Below, in pieces: positions 54,219 to 59,755 of a DNA stretch of 64,000 nt. Position numbers and translations under genes: made by a program. The notes under the pieces were generated by a model. That model was not told the origin of the DNA, did not search any database, and worked only from the letters and a program-made list of their open reading frames with translations. The DNA is from Escherichia coli phage phiS, in the sequence record PP449093.1, one strand, 5' to 3'. The stretch's first letter is position 1. Each line of letters begins with the position of its first letter.

Positions 54219-54959
54219 TCAAAAATTAGCAAAAGGTGAACCAGTGCCATTAATAGGATCAAACGGGTCAATAAAATCTTGTCCTTCGCTTCTGAATTGC
54301 TTATCTTCTTTGTACTGATCTAAGTTGATATCTGTTAACCCGTCCAGATTAGTGATCGGTGCAAGGTCCAGATCCGCAAACTCATCAACATTAATTCCCT
54401 CATTGCGTTGTAATTCTGGTCGCAATTCCTCACCGCTATACACGAATTTCTCTGCAATAATTTTACGCATGGCATTTTTGCCAGCCTGAAAAAACGGCTG
54501 ATATGGCTCTACATATGAGATTTCAAATAAATCATTGCTCATAGGAATGTAAAACAAATCACCGGATTTAGGCTCTTGGTTATCTACTTGATGTTTAAAT
54601 AAATTTGGATTTATAGTTATGGTTAACTCATCATTAGCGGTATAACCGAAAGATTGAAAGAAATTGCCAGCACCCTCATACCCATCGAAAGAATTTATGT
54701 ATGCTGCAAACTTCCACGCCTTAGTGAATTTGCTTTGCACGTCCTCCCCAAATATCATATCAGGTTTCACAAATTCTCTCGGTATGTAGTACATCTCGAC
54801 GCCGCGCATTTGTATAGACTCGGCAACCATAATATCGGCTAGAGTTTGTGTATTTGTATGTGAATTGAAATTCACATAAGGATTGAGAATTTCTGTTTGT
54901 CTAGTGTTCTCATAATCCTTCTGTGACTCCAATCTGGCAAATAATGTAGAGTCAAACAT
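54219..54959 (-). CDS. 14: Neck protein gp14
   Basis: 246 aa; LNPYVNFN and KNEGINV blocks. Confidence 0.75.
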
Positions 54960-55536
54960 AATAAAACTCCTTCCATTTTTCTGCGGTTGACTTTACTCGT
55001 TTCCTCATAGAAGCGGCTGATATCCCATACTTTCTACAACATTCTTGAGTGGTTAAGTATAGAACACCTTCTGCCATAATTTTTCTTGCGCCTTTAAAAT
55101 TTTCCCAATCTCTATTTCTATTTTTTGCCGATTGACTCATTTTATTTTTAGTCTCGTCTGAGTGAGATTCTCTTTTTCGACTGGATGCTTTTTCAGATAT
55201 TTTTCTTCTTGCTTCATTTTTGGTTTCTTCGTCCATGTCATCCCACAAAGAACCTCTATTCACTCCACCCAGAGCAATATTATATGTATCTTCTCTTTCT
55301 ACAAATTCCTTAGTCACTATCTTTTTTTCTGCTAAAGCTAGTTCTTCTAACGTGTTGTGTGTGGAAAGAATAGTTTTTGTGAAGTTCTCTATTCCATACT
55401 TTTTTATTGCTCTTTTAATTCGTTTTCCGCTCCCCCAATAAGAATCCTTTTCTATTGGTTTTCTGGACGTTCTCATACCAACATAGACCATCCCATTTAA
55501 ATTATTTGTTATTTGATATAGATAATAATATGCCAT
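54952..55536 (-). CDS. GIY-YIG homing endonuclease (Seg-like) inserted between genes 13 and 14
   Basis: GIY-YIG core [20 protein letters not shown]...YWGSG; K/R-rich NUMOD3-like repeats; C-terminal HTH-like. Confidence 0.7.
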
Positions 55537-55603: not shown

Positions 55604-56536
55604 TCAAATCATGAGGATGCCGAACGGAGGATCTAATAATTCTAGTTCTTGTCGCAATTTCTCAATGTCGGCTCGTGCTTCTTCAATGATTCGGATACCA
55701 TCAACAGTGACACCACCGGGTAATTGCAGACCTTGATGTTTAGCCATGATGGACCCCCAAACCTCCTTAGTGAAGGCGGTGGCCATATCTTTCACCCAAC
55801 GGTTATTATATGCGCCCTGCTTGTTCTCACTGATCGGTCCCATGCCAGCAACAATCCCGCTTAAACCAGCAGTTGGGTTATCATAAACGGCGCTAATCCC
55901 GCCAGCGGTAGAACATCCTCCCGCATGAGCATAACCAGCAACCGCACCGATCATATCAGGAACGTCTATATAGCTTTTAACATATAATTCAACAACAATG
56001 AGATCACCTTCTCGGAAGTTTCCTGTAATCTTAAGTTGTCCGTTTGCGCTATTATACCAATAATCTGGAAGCGGATTGAGCATATTTTGCATAGTTGCGC
56101 GATAGCTCATAAGCTGTTCGAAATATCCCAGATCACCGCCCATTGCATTTGGACCATAAAATTTACTACAGCCAGATCCTAAACCGCCATTTACACCCGC
56201 TAAACCCAACAGAAAGTCAGTAAACCACGGATAAACGGCAGTGCCATCCATCGTAGCCGCGCTACCTACGTTTGTTCGAATTATTTTAGTTACTGCGAAT
56301 ACTCCAGAATCGCTTAAATCAAATACCCCGTGTTGCGCTTGCTCTGCACTAACACGAAATACTTTATATCCTTTATTCACACCATCGAAATGATATTCCC
56401 CATAGAGTTCTAGTGCTCTCTGAATACAATCGTAAATCTGGTCTTCTGTGACTTCTACGTTAATTACTGGTGCGCCTAAACGACGCAGAATAGCGTCTTT
56501 TAATTCTCTTGGGTTATTGGTTACATATCCTGACAT
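55604..56536 (-). CDS. 13: Neck protein gp13
   Basis: 310 aa; position. Confidence 0.75.
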
Positions 56537-56582
56537 AATATCACCTATAAACGGAAAAGGGGCTTAACGCCCCTTTAATTTC

Positions 56583-58352
56583 TTATACCGGAGAAATTCC
56601 AAAGAGGAACTCTTTAATTTGTAGCTGTTGCGCTAATGCTTCTTCGGATACGCCCTTAATGCGAATATCGATCCGGTCGCCCTTTTCAATATTTAGGAAA
56701 GCACTGGTAGAATAGCTAATTAAATCATCAGGTCCATAATGACCATTTCGTACCTCATGTACAATCAGACCATTTTTAGCAATACCGACTACGAAAGTAG
56801 CGTTATGTGCCGCATTTACAGAACAACGGAAATCACAACGGAATAAGCCTTTGTCGTTAACCGTAACAAGAGATTCGCTCTTAACCATTCCACGCGCAGG
56901 AACTTCTTCGGTCATATCGTTTAGCGGGATTCCTTTGTATTGATCTTGTCCGTCGAGAGTAATATCAATCTGAGCGGTGTTTTTAAATGCACCAGCCGCC
57001 CATGCGACCTGAACCCATTCCCCGTGCTTACGTAGATAATGGAAACCATCATCAGGAACGTCTGTTACCTTGCTTGCATTTGATGTGCTCAATTCCTTAA
57101 CAGTTTTCACGATCCCATCTTGTTCAAGCTGCGTGCTTCCTTCTGGATTGCCGTACATGTCGCTTGACAGCTTAATAACCCCGGCGGTTAGACCGGAATC
57201 TCGATCTCCGATCATTTGCTCGATATCCTGTACGCTAGCTTCTAGTCGTCCCTGTGTATTTTCTACAATTTTTAGACGACCTGCGATAGTATGACGCTCA
57301 CTATCAGTACCAACTGTGTTAGAGATTCGTGCAACCTCACCACGTAGACCATCAGCACCACTAACACCGACAATAGATTTAAGATCTACAAATTCCCGTT
57401 CTTGATTAGTCAATCGATAATCAATACTTCCAGCGGCTTGAGGACTGCCAATCGTATTTTCCAGAAGAGTTAAACGAGGACGGATACCAGCGTCAACCCC
57501 GTTGACTTCATCATTAAGCTGTGTATAATCAGATTGTAGCTTAGTTACTTTAGTACCGATATCAGGAATTGATTCAAATAGAATCGCTTTCTTTACTTCC
57601 TGAACTTCGTTTGATATACTAGCGATATTGCGAGTATTTGTGCGAAGACGAAGATAAACATTGTCCTGTGTTGCTAGTGATGTGTCGCCTAGCTCGCTTC
57701 GCATTTTGTTAACTTGTTCTGTTAGCTCTCCAACGTCAGAATCTTGCCAGTCGTTTTCTAGTTGGCGGATTCGCTGACCGTGGTTGTTTAATGCTTCCGT
57801 ATTCTGGATAACTCGATATTTGATACCGGAACCGGAACTACCCGGATCTGGAGAGCCGTTGATATTGAAGTTAGGGAAAGCGCCCAATTCTTGTTTGATG
57901 AAAGAAATATCATCATATATTGTTCGTGTACTCGGATCTGCTGCCGGACGAACACCAATTTTCTTTCCTGTCTCTGCCAGTTCATCTACTGTGGTTTGTA
58001 ATGTCCTTGAAGTTTCTCCTAAATTTTCTTCTACAGACTCAACCTTTGAAATAGTTTGATTGACAATATCAATAATACTACCATCAGCAACCGCGCCTAA
58101 AGTAGTTTTAATATCATTAACTGCTGTAACAACTTCGTTAACTTTTGTTACCGTTGTCTTAGAATTTTCATCCAGACGAACAATATTTTCTTGAATAGCA
58201 TAAGGGGCGCGGTTAAGCGTCCCCTCATGTCCTGTTTCTGTGGTTGCTGCGCTTAGACATTCACCATTTTTAATCCAGCTAATAGAATGCTGTCCCTCTC
58301 CAGGGACACCATCGACGTTAGGGATCTTTCGAATGTTTAACTGTTCGATCAT
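56583..58352 (-). CDS. wac: Fibritin (whisker, wac-like) with an extra C-terminal domain
   Basis: Long heptad-repeat region; foldon-like GFHYLRKHGEWVQV; about 140 aa more after it. Confidence 0.6.
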   Translation of the reverse strand: MIEQLNIRKIPNVDGVPGEGQHSISWIKNGECLSAATTETGHEGTLNRAPYAIQENIVRLDENSKTTVTKVNEVVTAVNDIKTTLGAVADGSIIDIVNQTISKVESVEENLGETSRTLQTTVDELAETGKKIGVRPAADPSTRTIYDDISFIKQELGAFPNFNINGSPDPGSSGSGIKYRVIQNTEALNNHGQRIRQLENDWQDSDVGELTEQVNKMRSELGDTSLATQDNVYLRLRTNTRNIASISNEVQEVKKAILFESIPDIGTKVTKLQSDYTQLNDEVNGVDAGIRPRLTLLENTIGSPQAAGSIDYRLTNQEREFVDLKSIVGVSGADGLRGEVARISNTVGTDSERHTIAGRLKIVENTQGRLEASVQDIEQMIGDRDSGLTAGVIKLSSDMYGNPEGSTQLEQDGIVKTVKELSTSNASKVTDVPDDGFHYLRKHGEWVQVAWAAGAFKNTAQIDITLDGQDQYKGIPLNDMTEEVPARGMVKSESLVTVNDKGLFRCDFRCSVNAAHNATFVVGIAKNGLIVHEVRNGHYGPDDLISYSTSAFLNIEKGDRIDIRIKGVSEEALAQQLQIKEFLFGISPV

Positions 58353-59755
58353 TATTGTACCCTTATCATGTAGTTTAATGCAAGGCTTTTAACGCGAGTT
58401 TCGCCAGACGTTCTAACCTGTCTTGCGCTGTCAAAGTTAACAATACTACCCCAATCATCACCACCACCGTTTTTATAGTTCGTGCTCCATTGACCACCTG
58501 TGATGGAAAATGCACCACCAGTCCAACCGCGCCAACGGTTAGCTACAGGGAAGTTACCTGTCATATGTTGCATGGTGTCGTCTTGATAAGTACCAAATCC
58601 ACGACCTGGGTCTAGTCCTCGACCGTGGTCGCATCCTCTAGCAACAAGCCCTCGCATATCGGGTAGAGCAAAGTTGTCTCCGCCATCTCCGCCGTAAGTG
58701 AAACCGATTCGTGAAAATAATACTGGATATTGGTGTTTATTTAACCATTGACCGTTACAGATTTTGAATTGTGCGTGGTCGAAACTGTTAAATGCTGTAA
58801 GAATGATGCCACCAATAGGCATACAAAGACCATCCAGTTCATTTTTAATGATAAACTGGTTTCCGTCGCCTCCGCTATGACGATACACATCACCAGTAAC
58901 GACACCACCACTTAGAGGCAATACACGAGCATTTGCCGACAGTGCTGTGTTTGCCTCGCCTGATCCTGGGTTATCTGTTAGCTTAACAACACCGAATTGT
59001 CCAGTGGTTGCTTTAGTGTTCGCAAATTTTTGTGCTGATACTACTACTGTGTTGTCATTGCCGTCAATCATTTGTTGGGATGAGGCAATTTTAACAGTAC
59101 CCGCCTGATTTTCATTGGCTCTTGCGTTGGAAAATGCATATGGACTAACGGCAAATCCTTCTCTGATAGTACCAGCAAGCGTTTGTTGGCTTGTCGCCAG
59201 TCTAACTAAACCCTCACGGGACTCGGTCGCCGTGTTTTGTTCTGGAATCAACCCAGGAACAATCTGAGCAATAGCAGCGTGCATCTTTTTAGGCGTTACT
59301 GCCATAGTGTCATCGCTACCTATTTTTGCCGCATCCATAGAACAGATTTTAATTGTACCCTGTACGGTTTCCGTTGCTTTCTTGTTCTCGAATACATGGG
59401 TTAATGTATCAGGACCAATTGCAATATTTGGAGTATCGCCCATAGCTTCATCGTTATTAGCATAGCGAGTGATCCCTTTGACAAGTTTTGTTGCGTCCGG
59501 TCTTGACAGCTTAACAGCCAATGTTTTTGGGGTAACAATTTTAGTTCCATCCAACCCATCATCTACTTCTTGTTGAGTAGCAATTTCAGCAATACCCGCT
59601 GTTTCTTCGGTTGCCGTTGGAAGACCTGCAATCGCAAATCCCTGAATAGCGGCTAATGCCGCTTGTACGTTTTTTATATTGCTAGGCCAATTTCCGGTAG
59701 GGTCAAACTTAACATACTGTGCATCGTCTTTTACGTGATTAATAGTGTTATTCAT
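58352..59755 (-). CDS. 12: Short tail fibre gp12
   Basis: N-terminal repeats (ETAGIAEIATQQEVDDG, ETVQGTIKICS, REGLVRLATSQQ, QAGTVKIASSQQ) typical of gp12. Confidence 0.75.
   Translation of the reverse strand: MNNTINHVKDDAQYVKFDPTGNWPSNIKNVQAALAAIQGFAIAGLPTATEETAGIAEIATQQEVDDGLDGTKIVTPKTLAVKLSRPDATKLVKGITRYANNDEAMGDTPNIAIGPDTLTHVFENKKATETVQGTIKICSMDAAKIGSDDTMAVTPKKMHAAIAQIVPGLIPEQNTATESREGLVRLATSQQTLAGTIREGFAVSPYAFSNARANENQAGTVKIASSQQMIDGNDNTVVVSAQKFANTKATTGQFGVVKLTDNPGSGEANTALSANARVLPLSGGVVTGDVYRHSGGDGNQFIIKNELDGLCMPIGGIILTAFNSFDHAQFKICNGQWLNKHQYPVLFSRIGFTYGGDGGDNFALPDMRGLVARGCDHGRGLDPGRGFGTYQDDTMQHMTGNFPVANRWRGWTGGAFSITGGQWSTNYKNGGGDDWGSIVNFDSARQVRTSGETRVKSLALNYMIRVQ

What the first reader, a model, noticed from the sequence alone, without database searches (positions are those of the whole stretch)
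56583..57002. Fibritin with a foldon-like motif followed by an extra ~140-aa C-terminal domain
In T4 the foldon is the extreme C-terminus of fibritin. Here a foldon-like GFHYLRKHGEWVQV is internal and followed by a Cys-containing domain (RCDFRCSVNAAHN...), which may be an added receptor-binding or environmental-sensing module on the whiskers.
Basis: inference. Interest (0 to 1): 0.35.

Follow-up and report, generated by a model that had tools for sequence, protein, structure and literature searches.

The report
Fibritin whisker with C1q-like end knob
The neck-whisker protein of this RB49/JSE-type T4-like phage keeps its foldon and carries a 139-residue C1q/TNF-fold knob after it; this fibritin type is already described and annotated, so the finding is real but ordinary.

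Summary
ORF 56583-58352 (- strand, 589 aa) is fibritin (wac), lying between gene 12 and gene 13 of a Krischvirus. Its last 139 aa are 100% identical to phage JSE wac.

Residues 428-450 are a genuine foldon homologue: the Pfam Fibritin_C match runs to profile position 91 of 93, and the P, Y, R and W residues are conserved across genera.

Residues 451-589 are a separate all-beta domain. AlphaFold2 with a 14-sequence alignment gives pLDDT above 90 there. Foldseek places it in the C1q/TNF jelly-roll superfamily (ExsFA/BxpB, C1QL, Cbln1, 4-1BBL and phage receptor-binding heads; probability 1.0).

This is the "RB49-type" fibritin of Letarov et al. (2005, 2013). They report that it needs its enlarged C-terminal domain to fold and trimerise.

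The likeliest role is therefore a trimeric folding nucleus and cap at the whisker tip. A binding role (long tail fibre or host glycan) is not excluded, but I found no positive evidence for one.

The domain is confined to about 66 phage genomes (Krischvirus and Muldoonvirus) plus a few metagenomic relatives. Two points may go beyond the papers I could read: the fold assignment, and that the foldon is retained rather than replaced. Interest is low.

The parts
56583..58352 (-). wac gene, encoding fibritin (neck whisker and collar protein), 589 aa plus stop codon
   Evidence: ORF. T4 fibritin 2bsg_A matches at E 1.8e-52. PHROG 1056 matches at E 6.6e-181. The gene is syntenic with gp12-wac-gp13 in RB49 and JSE.
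58203..58352 (-). N-terminal neck-binding domain, residues 1-50
   Evidence: It aligns with the N-terminal fragments of T4 fibritin 1ox3 and 2ibl at E about 2e-14. It is 80-100% identical within Krischvirus and 44-56% identical in other genera. dN/dS is 0.05.
57072..58202 (-). Shaft, residues 51-427, taken to be a segmented coiled coil by homology to the T4 shaft
   Evidence: It aligns with T4 fibritin residues 6-435. dN/dS is 0.09. Heptad periodicity was not tested separately.
57210..57287 (-). Residues 356-381, the counterpart of T4 fibritin helix alpha11 (T4 residues 361-386). In T4 that helix contacts the gp35 kneecap of the long tail fibre. This is a candidate docking site, by inference only.
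   Evidence: The mapping comes from the alignment (T4 numbering = window numbering + 5 after the 6-residue gap). The T4 contact is reported in preprint 10.64898/2026.03.06.709160. It was not tested for this phage.
57003..57071 (-). Foldon-like segment, residues 428-450 (KVTDVPDDGFHYLRKHGEWVQVA)
   Evidence: The Pfam Fibritin_C match extends to profile position 91 of 93. A PDB profile search returns only T4 foldons at these positions. P, Y, R, W and Q are invariant in 8 phages of two genera. It is the most conserved part of the C-terminal half, with dN/dS 0.05.
56586..57002 (-). C-terminal knob, residues 451-589: a C1q/TNF-type beta jelly roll
   Evidence: AlphaFold2 with a 14-sequence alignment gives mean pLDDT 85.9 and pTM 0.78, and 10-residue block means of about 90 or more over most of the domain, with one block at 79. 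Foldseek against the PDB finds ExsFA, BxpB, 4-1BBL, C1QL1, Cbln1 and the phage 1358 receptor-binding protein at E 2e-6 to 3e-5, probability 1.0, with 208 hits at E <= 1e-3. Pfam BclA_C is hit by 11 of 14 relatives (best E 4e-7) and C1q by 8 of 14, all below the gathering score.
56556..56576 (.). GC-rich hairpin between the wac stop codon and the gene 13 start codon; terminator-like
   Evidence: Found by the pattern scan. The same site is annotated as a putative transcriptional terminator in relatives G37-3, G2494, G2248 and GEC-3S. It also coincides with the point where identity to RB49 jumps from about 79% to 99%.

Best explanation
The gene is the ordinary wac (fibritin) of an RB49/JSE-type T4-like phage (genus Krischvirus). 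Its architecture is: N-terminal neck-binding domain, shaft homologous to the T4 coiled coil, retained foldon, then a 139-residue C1q/TNF-fold beta jelly-roll knob joined to the foldon by only about 3 residues.

Domains of this fold are obligate trimers that commonly cap trimeric fibres, for example C1q, collagens VIII and X, Bacillus BclA and ExsFA, and many phage fibre heads.

The most likely mechanism is that the knob, together with the foldon, forms the C-terminal nucleus that brings three chains into register so that the coiled coil can zip up towards the N-terminus. It then remains as the globular tip of each whisker or collar strand.

Shown here: the domain boundaries, the foldon homology, the fold class, the domain's restriction to one clade of T4-like phages, and purifying selection on it.

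Taken from the literature: RB49 fibritin needs its expanded C-terminal domain to fold and trimerise.

Inferred: that the knob is trimeric in this protein, and that docking of the long tail fibre uses the conserved alpha11-like shaft segment rather than the knob.
For: - **Fibritin identity and synteny:**
- **Foldon homology and conservation:**. The foldon's dN/dS is 0.05.
- **A confident all-beta model of the knob:**. Foldseek finds C1q/TNF-superfamily trimers in the PDB and many C1q-headed or collagen-repeat phage fibre proteins in BFVD. Sub-threshold BclA_C and C1q Pfam hits recur in most relatives.
- **Short linker:** the first strand of the knob starts 3-4 residues after the foldon.
- **Positions invariant across genera** are few: D-x-G, N-G and one I. 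I read them as turn and core residues rather than a surface site.
- **Experiment on this fibritin type:** Letarov and Krisch 2013 (PMC3797505) list RB49-type as one of eight C-terminal types. [quoted passage not shown]
- **One relative points the same way:** in the distant relative P0022 the foldon is degenerate (W lost) while the knob persists. This would fit the knob being able to carry the trimerisation role, though it rests on a single sequence.
Against: - The model is a monomer, and its foldon part has pLDDT of about 50.
- The statement that folding depends on the C-terminal domain is second-hand. The primary paper (Letarov 2005) is not held.
- A pure folding cap would not need a nonsynonymous-to-synonymous ratio three to five times higher than the rest of the protein (odds ratio 3.3-5.6, p 0.001-0.014). 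Nor would it explain why a functional foldon is still so strongly conserved next to it.
- Phage fibre heads of the same fold are often ligand-binding.
Confidence: 0.6

Rival explanations
1. The knob is the whisker's docking head for the long tail fibre. It would hold the fibre knee (gp35/gp36) in the retracted position and release it under favourable conditions, taking over the environment-sensing function ascribed to the C-terminal part of T4 fibritin.
For: PMC3797505 summarises genetic and structural evidence that the C-terminal part of T4 fibritin interacts with the fibre near its knee. PMC9569957 notes that RB49-like Wac carries a different C-terminal moiety and suggests that the fibre's pre-adsorption conformation may differ from T4. 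From my own recollection, which I could not check, Letarov 2005 reported covariation of the gpwac and gp36 C-termini across distant phages. RB49-type gp36 is 496 aa; from memory, T4 gp36 is much shorter.
Against: - In T4 the resolved contact is between fibritin helix alpha11 (residues 361-386) and the gp35 kneecap, not the C-terminal tip (preprint 10.64898/2026.03.06.709160). An alpha11 counterpart is conserved here.
- Within Krischvirus the knob differs by 24% between the JSE and RB49 lineages, while gp34, gp35 and gp36 are 98%, 98% and 95% identical.
- ECD7 combines a JSE-type knob (residues 476-589) with an RB49-type gp36 that is 99.8% identical to RB49's. There is therefore no knob/gp36 covariation at this scale.
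Confidence: 0.2
2. The knob is an accessory adhesin or lectin on the whisker tips. It would bind a host surface glycan or another environmental ligand weakly and so aid adsorption.
For: - Structural neighbours include sugar-binding phage receptor-binding heads (lactococcal phage 1358 protein with GlcNAc, the phi812 knob) and C1q-type recognition heads.
- Many phage tail-fibre proteins in BFVD end in this fold.
- The knob has a higher nonsynonymous-to-synonymous ratio than the rest of the protein. Sites 482, 486, 513 and 570, all predicted to lie in loops, vary in both lineages.
- wac is co-inherited with the LPS-binding short tail fibre gene 12 as one divergent cassette. A 2026 preprint found k-mers predictive of LPS sugar specificity in gp12 and in the neighbouring fibritin gene.
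- Letarov and Krisch proposed an accessory adhesin role for other fibritin types.
Against: - Omega is about 0.3, which is overall purifying selection.
- There is no hypervariable or mosaic pattern like that of gp37, which is 72% identical with length changes.
- No surface motif conserved across genera stands out in the alignment.
- The k-mer signal and the cassette are most simply explained by physical linkage to gene 12.
- No binding data exist.
Confidence: 0.15
3. The extension is not a real domain. It could be more coiled coil, a read-through or frameshift artefact, or a chance resemblance of the motif to the foldon.
For: None found. One apparent relative, P0003, seemed to end right after the foldon.
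Against: - The 139 residues are conserved in frame in 57 Krischvirus genomes, about 9 Muldoonvirus-type genomes and several metagenomic relatives.
- They evolve with dN/dS below 1.
- They are predicted with block-mean pLDDT of about 90 or more over most of the domain as an all-beta fold, not as helix.
- P0003's contig is a hairpin assembly chimera ending in an Illumina adapter.
Confidence: 0.01

Closest known systems
RB49-type fibritin (gpwac of phages RB49, JSE and Phi1; Letarov et al. 2005; Letarov and Krisch 2013)
   Same: It is the same protein family and the same architecture. The knob is 100% identical to JSE wac and 76% identical to RB49 wac. All are 589 aa, in the same gp12-wac-gp13 position.
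   Different: Nothing substantive. [quoted passage not shown] They mention neither the retained foldon nor the C1q/TNF fold.
T4 fibritin (PDB 2bsg, 1aa0) and its foldon (1rfo)
   Same: The N-terminal domain, the shaft and a foldon-like motif are all shared. The motif keeps P, D, G, Y, R, K, G, E, W and V in common with the T4 foldon. The genomic position is the same.
   Different: T4 fibritin ends with the foldon (487 aa). Here the foldon is internal and is followed by a 139-aa jelly-roll knob. According to PMC3797505, the foldon alone is not sufficient for folding outside the T4 and JS98 types.
C1q/TNF-superfamily trimeric heads: Bacillus BclA C-terminal domain (PF18573), ExsFA/BxpB (7r1m, 8d02), C1QL, Cbln1 and 4-1BBL
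   Same: The fold is a beta jelly roll: Foldseek E 2e-6 to 3e-5, TM-score 0.5-0.7. In BclA and C1q the domain likewise sits at the C-terminal end of a trimeric fibre and nucleates its trimerisation (established knowledge). Weak sequence-profile hits recur.
   Different: Sequence identity is only 10-18%. The Pfam scores are below the gathering threshold. The preceding fibre is a coiled coil rather than a collagen triple helix. The trimeric state and any ligand are untested.
Phage fibre heads with the same fold: lactococcal phage 1358 receptor-binding protein (4l92, 4rgg), phi812 central spike knob (9eul), and collagen-repeat or C1q-domain proteins of uncultured phages (BFVD)
   Same: They share the jelly-roll head at the end of a trimeric virion fibre.
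   Different: Those proteins are tail or baseplate receptor-binding proteins. This one is on the neck whiskers, and no receptor role is known for it.
Other fibritin C-terminal types: JS98 (two foldons), RB43/KP15 (Ig-like domains) and Aeh1 (a long fibre plus a chaperone)
   Same: They follow the same principle: a conserved N-terminal domain and shaft with a variable C-terminal module (PMC3797505).
   Different: The module is different. Only the JS98 type is described there as containing foldon motifs.

Membership tests
Fibritin / gpwac of T4-like phages | Conserved N-terminal domain of about 50 aa that binds the neck | tested here: met
   Residues 7-84 align with the T4 fibritin N-terminal constructs 1ox3 and 2ibl at E about 2e-14. 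This is among the best-conserved segments across genera.
Fibritin / gpwac of T4-like phages | Long shaft homologous to the segmented coiled coil of T4 fibritin | tested here: met
   Residues 7-430 align with T4 fibritin residues 6-435 at E 1e-50. PHROG 1056 matches over the full length. Heptad periodicity was not analysed separately.
Fibritin / gpwac of T4-like phages | Gene located between gene 12 (short tail fibre) and gene 13 (neck protein) | tested here: met
   Window ORFs. The same order is annotated in RB49, JSE and others and seen in distant metagenomic relatives.
Foldon (C-terminal trimerisation motif of T4 fibritin) | Sequence signature of the beta-hairpin motif (P..DG..Y.RK.GEWV) | tested here: met
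   Pfam Fibritin_C matches to profile position 91 of 93. The fragment alone scores 22.1 bits against a cutoff of 21. The PDB profile search returns only foldons. P, Y, R and W are invariant across two genera.
Foldon (C-terminal trimerisation motif of T4 fibritin) | Forms a trimeric beta-hairpin propeller that is sufficient to trimerise the shaft | not testable with these tools
   Only a monomer model was available, and the foldon part has pLDDT of about 50. PMC3797505 states that only T4 and JS98 fibritins fold with the foldon motif alone.
Foldon (C-terminal trimerisation motif of T4 fibritin) | Located at the extreme C-terminus | tested here: not met
   It is followed by 139 residues.
C1q/TNF-like jelly-roll superfamily (Pfam BclA_C PF18573, C1q PF00386) | Compact beta jelly-roll fold | tested here: met
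   The AlphaFold2 model has block-mean pLDDT of about 90 or more over most of the domain, with 11 strands of 3 or more residues. Foldseek gives probability 1.0 to ExsFA, BxpB, C1QL, Cbln1 and TNF ligands, with 208 PDB hits at E <= 1e-3.
C1q/TNF-like jelly-roll superfamily (Pfam BclA_C PF18573, C1q PF00386) | Sequence membership at Pfam's gathering threshold | tested here: not met
   BclA_C scores 16.7 bits against a cutoff of 38. Hits are recurrent, in 11 of 14 relatives (best E 4e-7) for BclA_C and 8 of 14 for C1q, but all are below threshold.
C1q/TNF-like jelly-roll superfamily (Pfam BclA_C PF18573, C1q PF00386) | Assembles as a threefold-symmetric trimer | not testable with these tools
   No multimer prediction was available. 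It is inferred from the fold, and from the position directly after a foldon on a fibre that PMC3797505 describes as trimeric in every T4-like phage examined.
RB49-type fibritin (Letarov and Krisch 2013) | C-terminal module homologous to that of RB49 wac | tested here: met
   The knob is 76% identical to RB49 and 100% identical to JSE over the 139 aa. The genome is Krischvirus-like.

The most novel reading that the evidence does not exclude
The whisker-tip knob is not only a folding cap. It is a C1q-like recognition head that binds a host envelope glycan or another environmental ligand, giving RB49/JSE-type phages six or more extra low-affinity adhesins (or a ligand-gated release of the long tail fibres). 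The two deeply diverged gp12-wac cassettes in the genus would then correspond to different surface specificities.
Probability: 0.12. Interest if true: 0.55.

Novelty: already known. Interest (0 to 1): 0.18.

Why it matters
There is little to add for phage biology as it stands. This fibritin type was described in 2005 and 2013, and it is annotated in dozens of genomes.

Three small points go beyond what I found in the papers I could read:
- The RB49-type C-terminus is an addition downstream of a retained and strongly conserved foldon, not a replacement of it.
- The added module has the C1q/TNF trimeric jelly-roll fold. This rationalises the reported need for it in folding.
- It evolves faster than the rest of the protein, and it lies in a gp12-wac cassette that exists as two divergent alleles in the genus.

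If the knob proved to bind a ligand, it would give whiskers a direct role in host or environment recognition.

Tried and rejected
- **Sequence searches with the knob alone were nearly empty.** The word-indexed search gave 3 hits. The exhaustive HMMER scan of 1.84 billion representatives also gave 3, one of which (P0006) is a repetitive protein and probably spurious. A profile of three C-termini added nothing. Only a full-length profile recovered 17 relatives.
- **PDB sequence searches** found nothing for the knob, only foldons.
- **Single-sequence AlphaFold2** was poor, at pLDDT 51.
- **P0003 looked like a natural foldon-terminated variant.** Its contig is a palindromic assembly chimera ending in adapter sequence, so I rejected it.
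- **The cysteine pair as a disulfide or metal site.** Rejected, because it is not conserved.
- **Swap of the knob as a module at the foldon boundary.** ECD7, E26 and ELT3 are recombinants, but the breakpoint is at codon 475/476, inside the knob. This is plain homologous recombination.
- **Knob/gp36 covariation within the genus.** Not seen.
- **tblastn with the most divergent knob (P0022)** found nothing in the phage collection.
- **Letarov 2005 could not be read,** either by DOI or by PMC id.
- **Pfam PF28231** is precomputed for four close relatives. The local Pfam scan did not report it, so I do not know what it covers.
Full report
**1. What is at the coordinates**

The interval 56583-57002 is the 3' end of a 589-codon ORF on the minus strand, 56583..58352. 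It holds the stop codon plus residues 451-589.

The ORF is flanked by homologues of T4 gene 12 (58352-59755) and gene 13 (55604-56536). A GIY-YIG homing-endonuclease ORF, gene 14 and gene 15 follow.

The protein is fibritin:
- T4 fibritin 2bsg_A matches at E 1.8e-52 over residues 7-430.
- PHROG 1056 'fibritin neck whisker' matches at E 6.6e-181 over residues 1-581 of a 582-position profile.
- Pfam Fibritin_C matches at E 1.5e-24, residues 368-450.

The window is a Krischvirus (RB49/JSE-like) genome. The 6-kb neighbourhood is 95-97% identical to phages G37-3, MIZ4/5, JSE and FL15. The last 139 residues are 100% identical to JSE wac.

**2. The foldon-like motif is a real foldon homologue**

- The Fibritin_C match runs to profile position 91 of 93. 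Scanned alone, the 25-residue piece still passes Pfam's gathering score (22.1 against 21 bits, E 1.7e-4).
- HMMER aligns NASKVTDVPDDGFHYLRKHGEWVQV with T4 [25 protein letters not shown].
- A profile of 14 relatives retrieves from the PDB only T4 foldons and foldon tags, always at profile positions 4-24.
- Across eight phages of two genera (Krischvirus and Muldoonvirus) plus a metagenomic relative, the P, Y, R, W and Q positions are invariant.
- The segment is the most conserved part of the C-terminal half: 83-100% identity within the Krischvirus-like set and dN/dS about 0.05.
- In T4 the motif aligns at residues 456-480 of 487, at the C-terminal end. Here it is internal.

**3. The 139 residues after it are a separate C1q/TNF-type jelly-roll domain**

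- A single-sequence AlphaFold2 run was poor, at pLDDT 51.
- With a 14-sequence alignment (identities 91% down to 19%) the model reached mean pLDDT 85.9 and pTM 0.78. Block means of pLDDT are about 90 or more over most of model residues 28-164 (protein 453-589), with one 10-residue block at 79. The domain is all-beta, with 11 strands of 3 or more residues.
- The foldon part stayed at about 50, as expected for a monomer model of a motif that is stabilised by trimerisation.
- Foldseek against the PDB gave 208 hits at E <= 1e-3. The list is led by Bacillus exosporium proteins ExsFA and BxpB, the TNF ligands 4-1BBL, EDA, RANKL and LIGHT, the C1q-family heads C1QL1, C1QL3 and Cbln1, and phage fibre heads (lactococcal phage 1358 receptor-binding protein, the phi812 spike knob).
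- Foldseek against BFVD returned a 594-aa protein with 25% identity that looks like a related fibritin, then many phage proteins annotated as collagen triple-helix repeat, C1q domain or tail fibre.
- Sequence profiles agree weakly. Pfam BclA_C is hit by 11 of the 14 relatives (best E 4e-7) and C1q by 8 (best E 0.002), all below gathering score. One relative, P0021, carries a precomputed BclA_C hit.
- The first strand of the knob begins only 3-4 residues after the foldon.

**4. The cysteines are incidental**

'RCDFRC' reads RCVFRT, RVTFRV, RIAFRA, RVDLRV and RLEGKL in relatives. The two cysteines sit at alternating positions of a predicted beta strand, and relatives carry V, I, L, A, T or G there. 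Nothing points to a conserved disulfide or metal site.

**5. Distribution**

- tblastn finds the knob in 57 phage records, all Krischvirus-type, at 74-100% identity.
- More distantly, it is in Serratia phages 4S, WSPA, PS2 and Muldoon and in Cronobacter phage VP8, at 16-25% identity. About 66 records in all carry it.
- It is always the C-terminus of wac, between genes 12 and 13.
- Metagenomic relatives P0005, P0021 and P0022 extend the family. P0021 and P0022 lie in the same gp9-10-11-12-wac-13-14-15-16-17 synteny.
- An exhaustive HMMER scan of 1.84 billion representative proteins with the knob alone found only two credible hits, both fibritins. At the sequence level the module is confined to this clade.
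- In P0022 the foldon is degenerate (W lost) while the knob persists.
- An apparent foldon-terminated relative, P0003, is an assembly artefact: a hairpin chimera ending in an Illumina adapter.

**6. What is already known**

Letarov and Krisch 2013 (PMC3797505) classify fibritin C-termini into eight types, one named after RB49.

They report that only T4 and JS98 fibritins fold into trimers using the small foldon motifs alone. [quoted passage not shown]

They also note that the function of the non-T4 modules is unclear, and they speculate on accessory adhesin roles for other types.

A 2022 paper from the same group says that RB49-like Wac carries a C-terminal moiety 'unrelated' to T4's, and that the fibre's pre-adsorption conformation may differ (PMC9569957).

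I could not read the 2005 primary paper. Full-text searches for fibritin with C1q and with Krischvirus found no paper describing the fold.

**7. Mechanism**

The best-supported reading is that the knob is a trimeric C1q/TNF-type cap. Together with the foldon it registers the three chains and nucleates the coiled coil. The C1q-like C-terminal domains of BclA, C1q and collagens VIII and X do the same for their fibres (established knowledge). This fits the reported folding dependence of RB49 fibritin on its C-terminal domain.

Tail-fibre docking is more likely to use the shaft:
- A 2026 T4 preprint resolves the whisker-fibre contact as fibritin helix alpha11 (residues 361-386) lying in a groove of the gp35 kneecap, not the tip.
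- The counterpart here, residues 356-381, lies in the well-aligned Fibritin_C region.

Within Krischvirus:
- The knob differs by 24% between the JSE and RB49 lineages, whereas gp34, gp35 and gp36 are 98%, 98% and 95% identical.
- ECD7 pairs a JSE-type knob with an RB49-type gp36.

So I see no co-variation between the knob and the fibre knee at this scale.

**8. Evidence that keeps a binding role open**

- Region-wise Nei-Gojobori dN/dS medians are 0.05 (N-terminal domain), 0.09 (shaft), 0.05 (foldon) and 0.30 (knob).
- Minimal counts of nonsynonymous against synonymous changes are skewed in the knob relative to residues 1-450:

| Set | Knob (N:S) | Residues 1-450 (N:S) | p |
|---|---|---|---|
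| Seven close JSE-type genes | 10:3 | 19:32 | 0.014 |
| Ten JSE-type genes | 22:21 | 35:110 | 0.001 |

- Sites 482, 486, 513 and 570, all predicted to lie in loops, vary in both lineages.
- This pattern could reflect a relaxed, surface-exposed globular domain or mild diversifying selection. It is far from the mosaic hypervariability of gp37 (72% identity with length changes).
- The positions invariant across genera are few (D-x-G, N-G, one I). I read them as turn and core residues, not as a surface site.

**9. Verdict**

The functional guess is untested, and the feature is the standard, previously described wac of a well-sampled phage genus.

Two modest points may go beyond the papers I could read: the fold assignment, and that the foldon is retained rather than replaced.

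Novelty: already known. Interest: low.

Noticed in passing
window 56583-59755 (gene 12 and wac), compared with L001 (RB49): Gene 12 and wac together form a divergent cassette. Against RB49 they are 70-75% identical at the nucleotide level (73-78% amino acid). Identity jumps to 97-99% exactly at the wac/gene 13 junction, at the terminator-like hairpin, and gp13 is 99.7% identical. Krischvirus therefore carries two deeply diverged gp12-wac alleles, JSE-type and RB49-type. The left boundary, towards gene 11, was not determined.
   Followed up: partly
L010 (ECD7), L017 (E26) and L018 (ELT3), wac codons 475/476; equivalent to window about 56925-56930: These three phages have a recombinant wac. It is RB49-type up to codon 475 (99% nucleotide identity) and JSE-type from codon 476 to the stop codon. 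The breakpoint lies inside the knob, in the conserved IPLNDM stretch, not at a domain boundary.
   Followed up: yes
window 54952-55536 (- strand): A 194-aa ORF with a GIY-YIG-like N-terminus lies between gene 13 and gene 14. ECD7 and Phi1 have an ORF annotated as SegC homing endonuclease just after gene 13, and other relatives have other endonuclease ORFs there. RB49, JSE, G2494, FL15 and others have none, with gene 13 directly followed by gene 14. This is a mobile insertion that varies between close relatives.
   Followed up: partly
window 56556-56576: A GC-rich hairpin (AAAGGGGC-TTAAC-GCCCCTTT) lies in the 46-nt gap between wac and gene 13. Several relatives annotate it as a putative terminator.
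   Followed up: partly
L007 (ENA contig k141_11135), positions about 1720-1888: This metagenome contig folds back on itself: it carries the reverse complement of its own fibritin sequence and ends in an Illumina adapter. That produced a false 'foldon-terminated' fibritin, P0003, in the protein database.
   Followed up: yes
BFVD hits A0A1J0MHA5 (Klebsiella phage KPV15, 159 aa) and A0A192YAF6 (Morganella phage MP1, 141 aa, annotated 'fibritin neck whiskers'): These small stand-alone phage proteins have the same predicted knob fold (TM-score 0.6-0.75). KPV15's aligns over the whole 164-residue query at 24% identity, so it may be a free-standing foldon-plus-knob or a split fibritin C-terminus.
   Followed up: no
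P0007, P0009, P0010 and P0011 (close relatives of the window protein): They carry a precomputed Pfam accession, PF28231.1, that the local Pfam scan did not report for the window protein. I do not know which part of fibritin it describes.
   Followed up: no
L027, L028 and L029 (long tail fibre genes of RB49, JSE and ECD7): Krischvirus gp36 is 496 aa (from memory, much longer than T4 gp36) and is 95-99.8% conserved between lineages. gp37 is only 72-79% identical and varies in length.
   Followed up: partly
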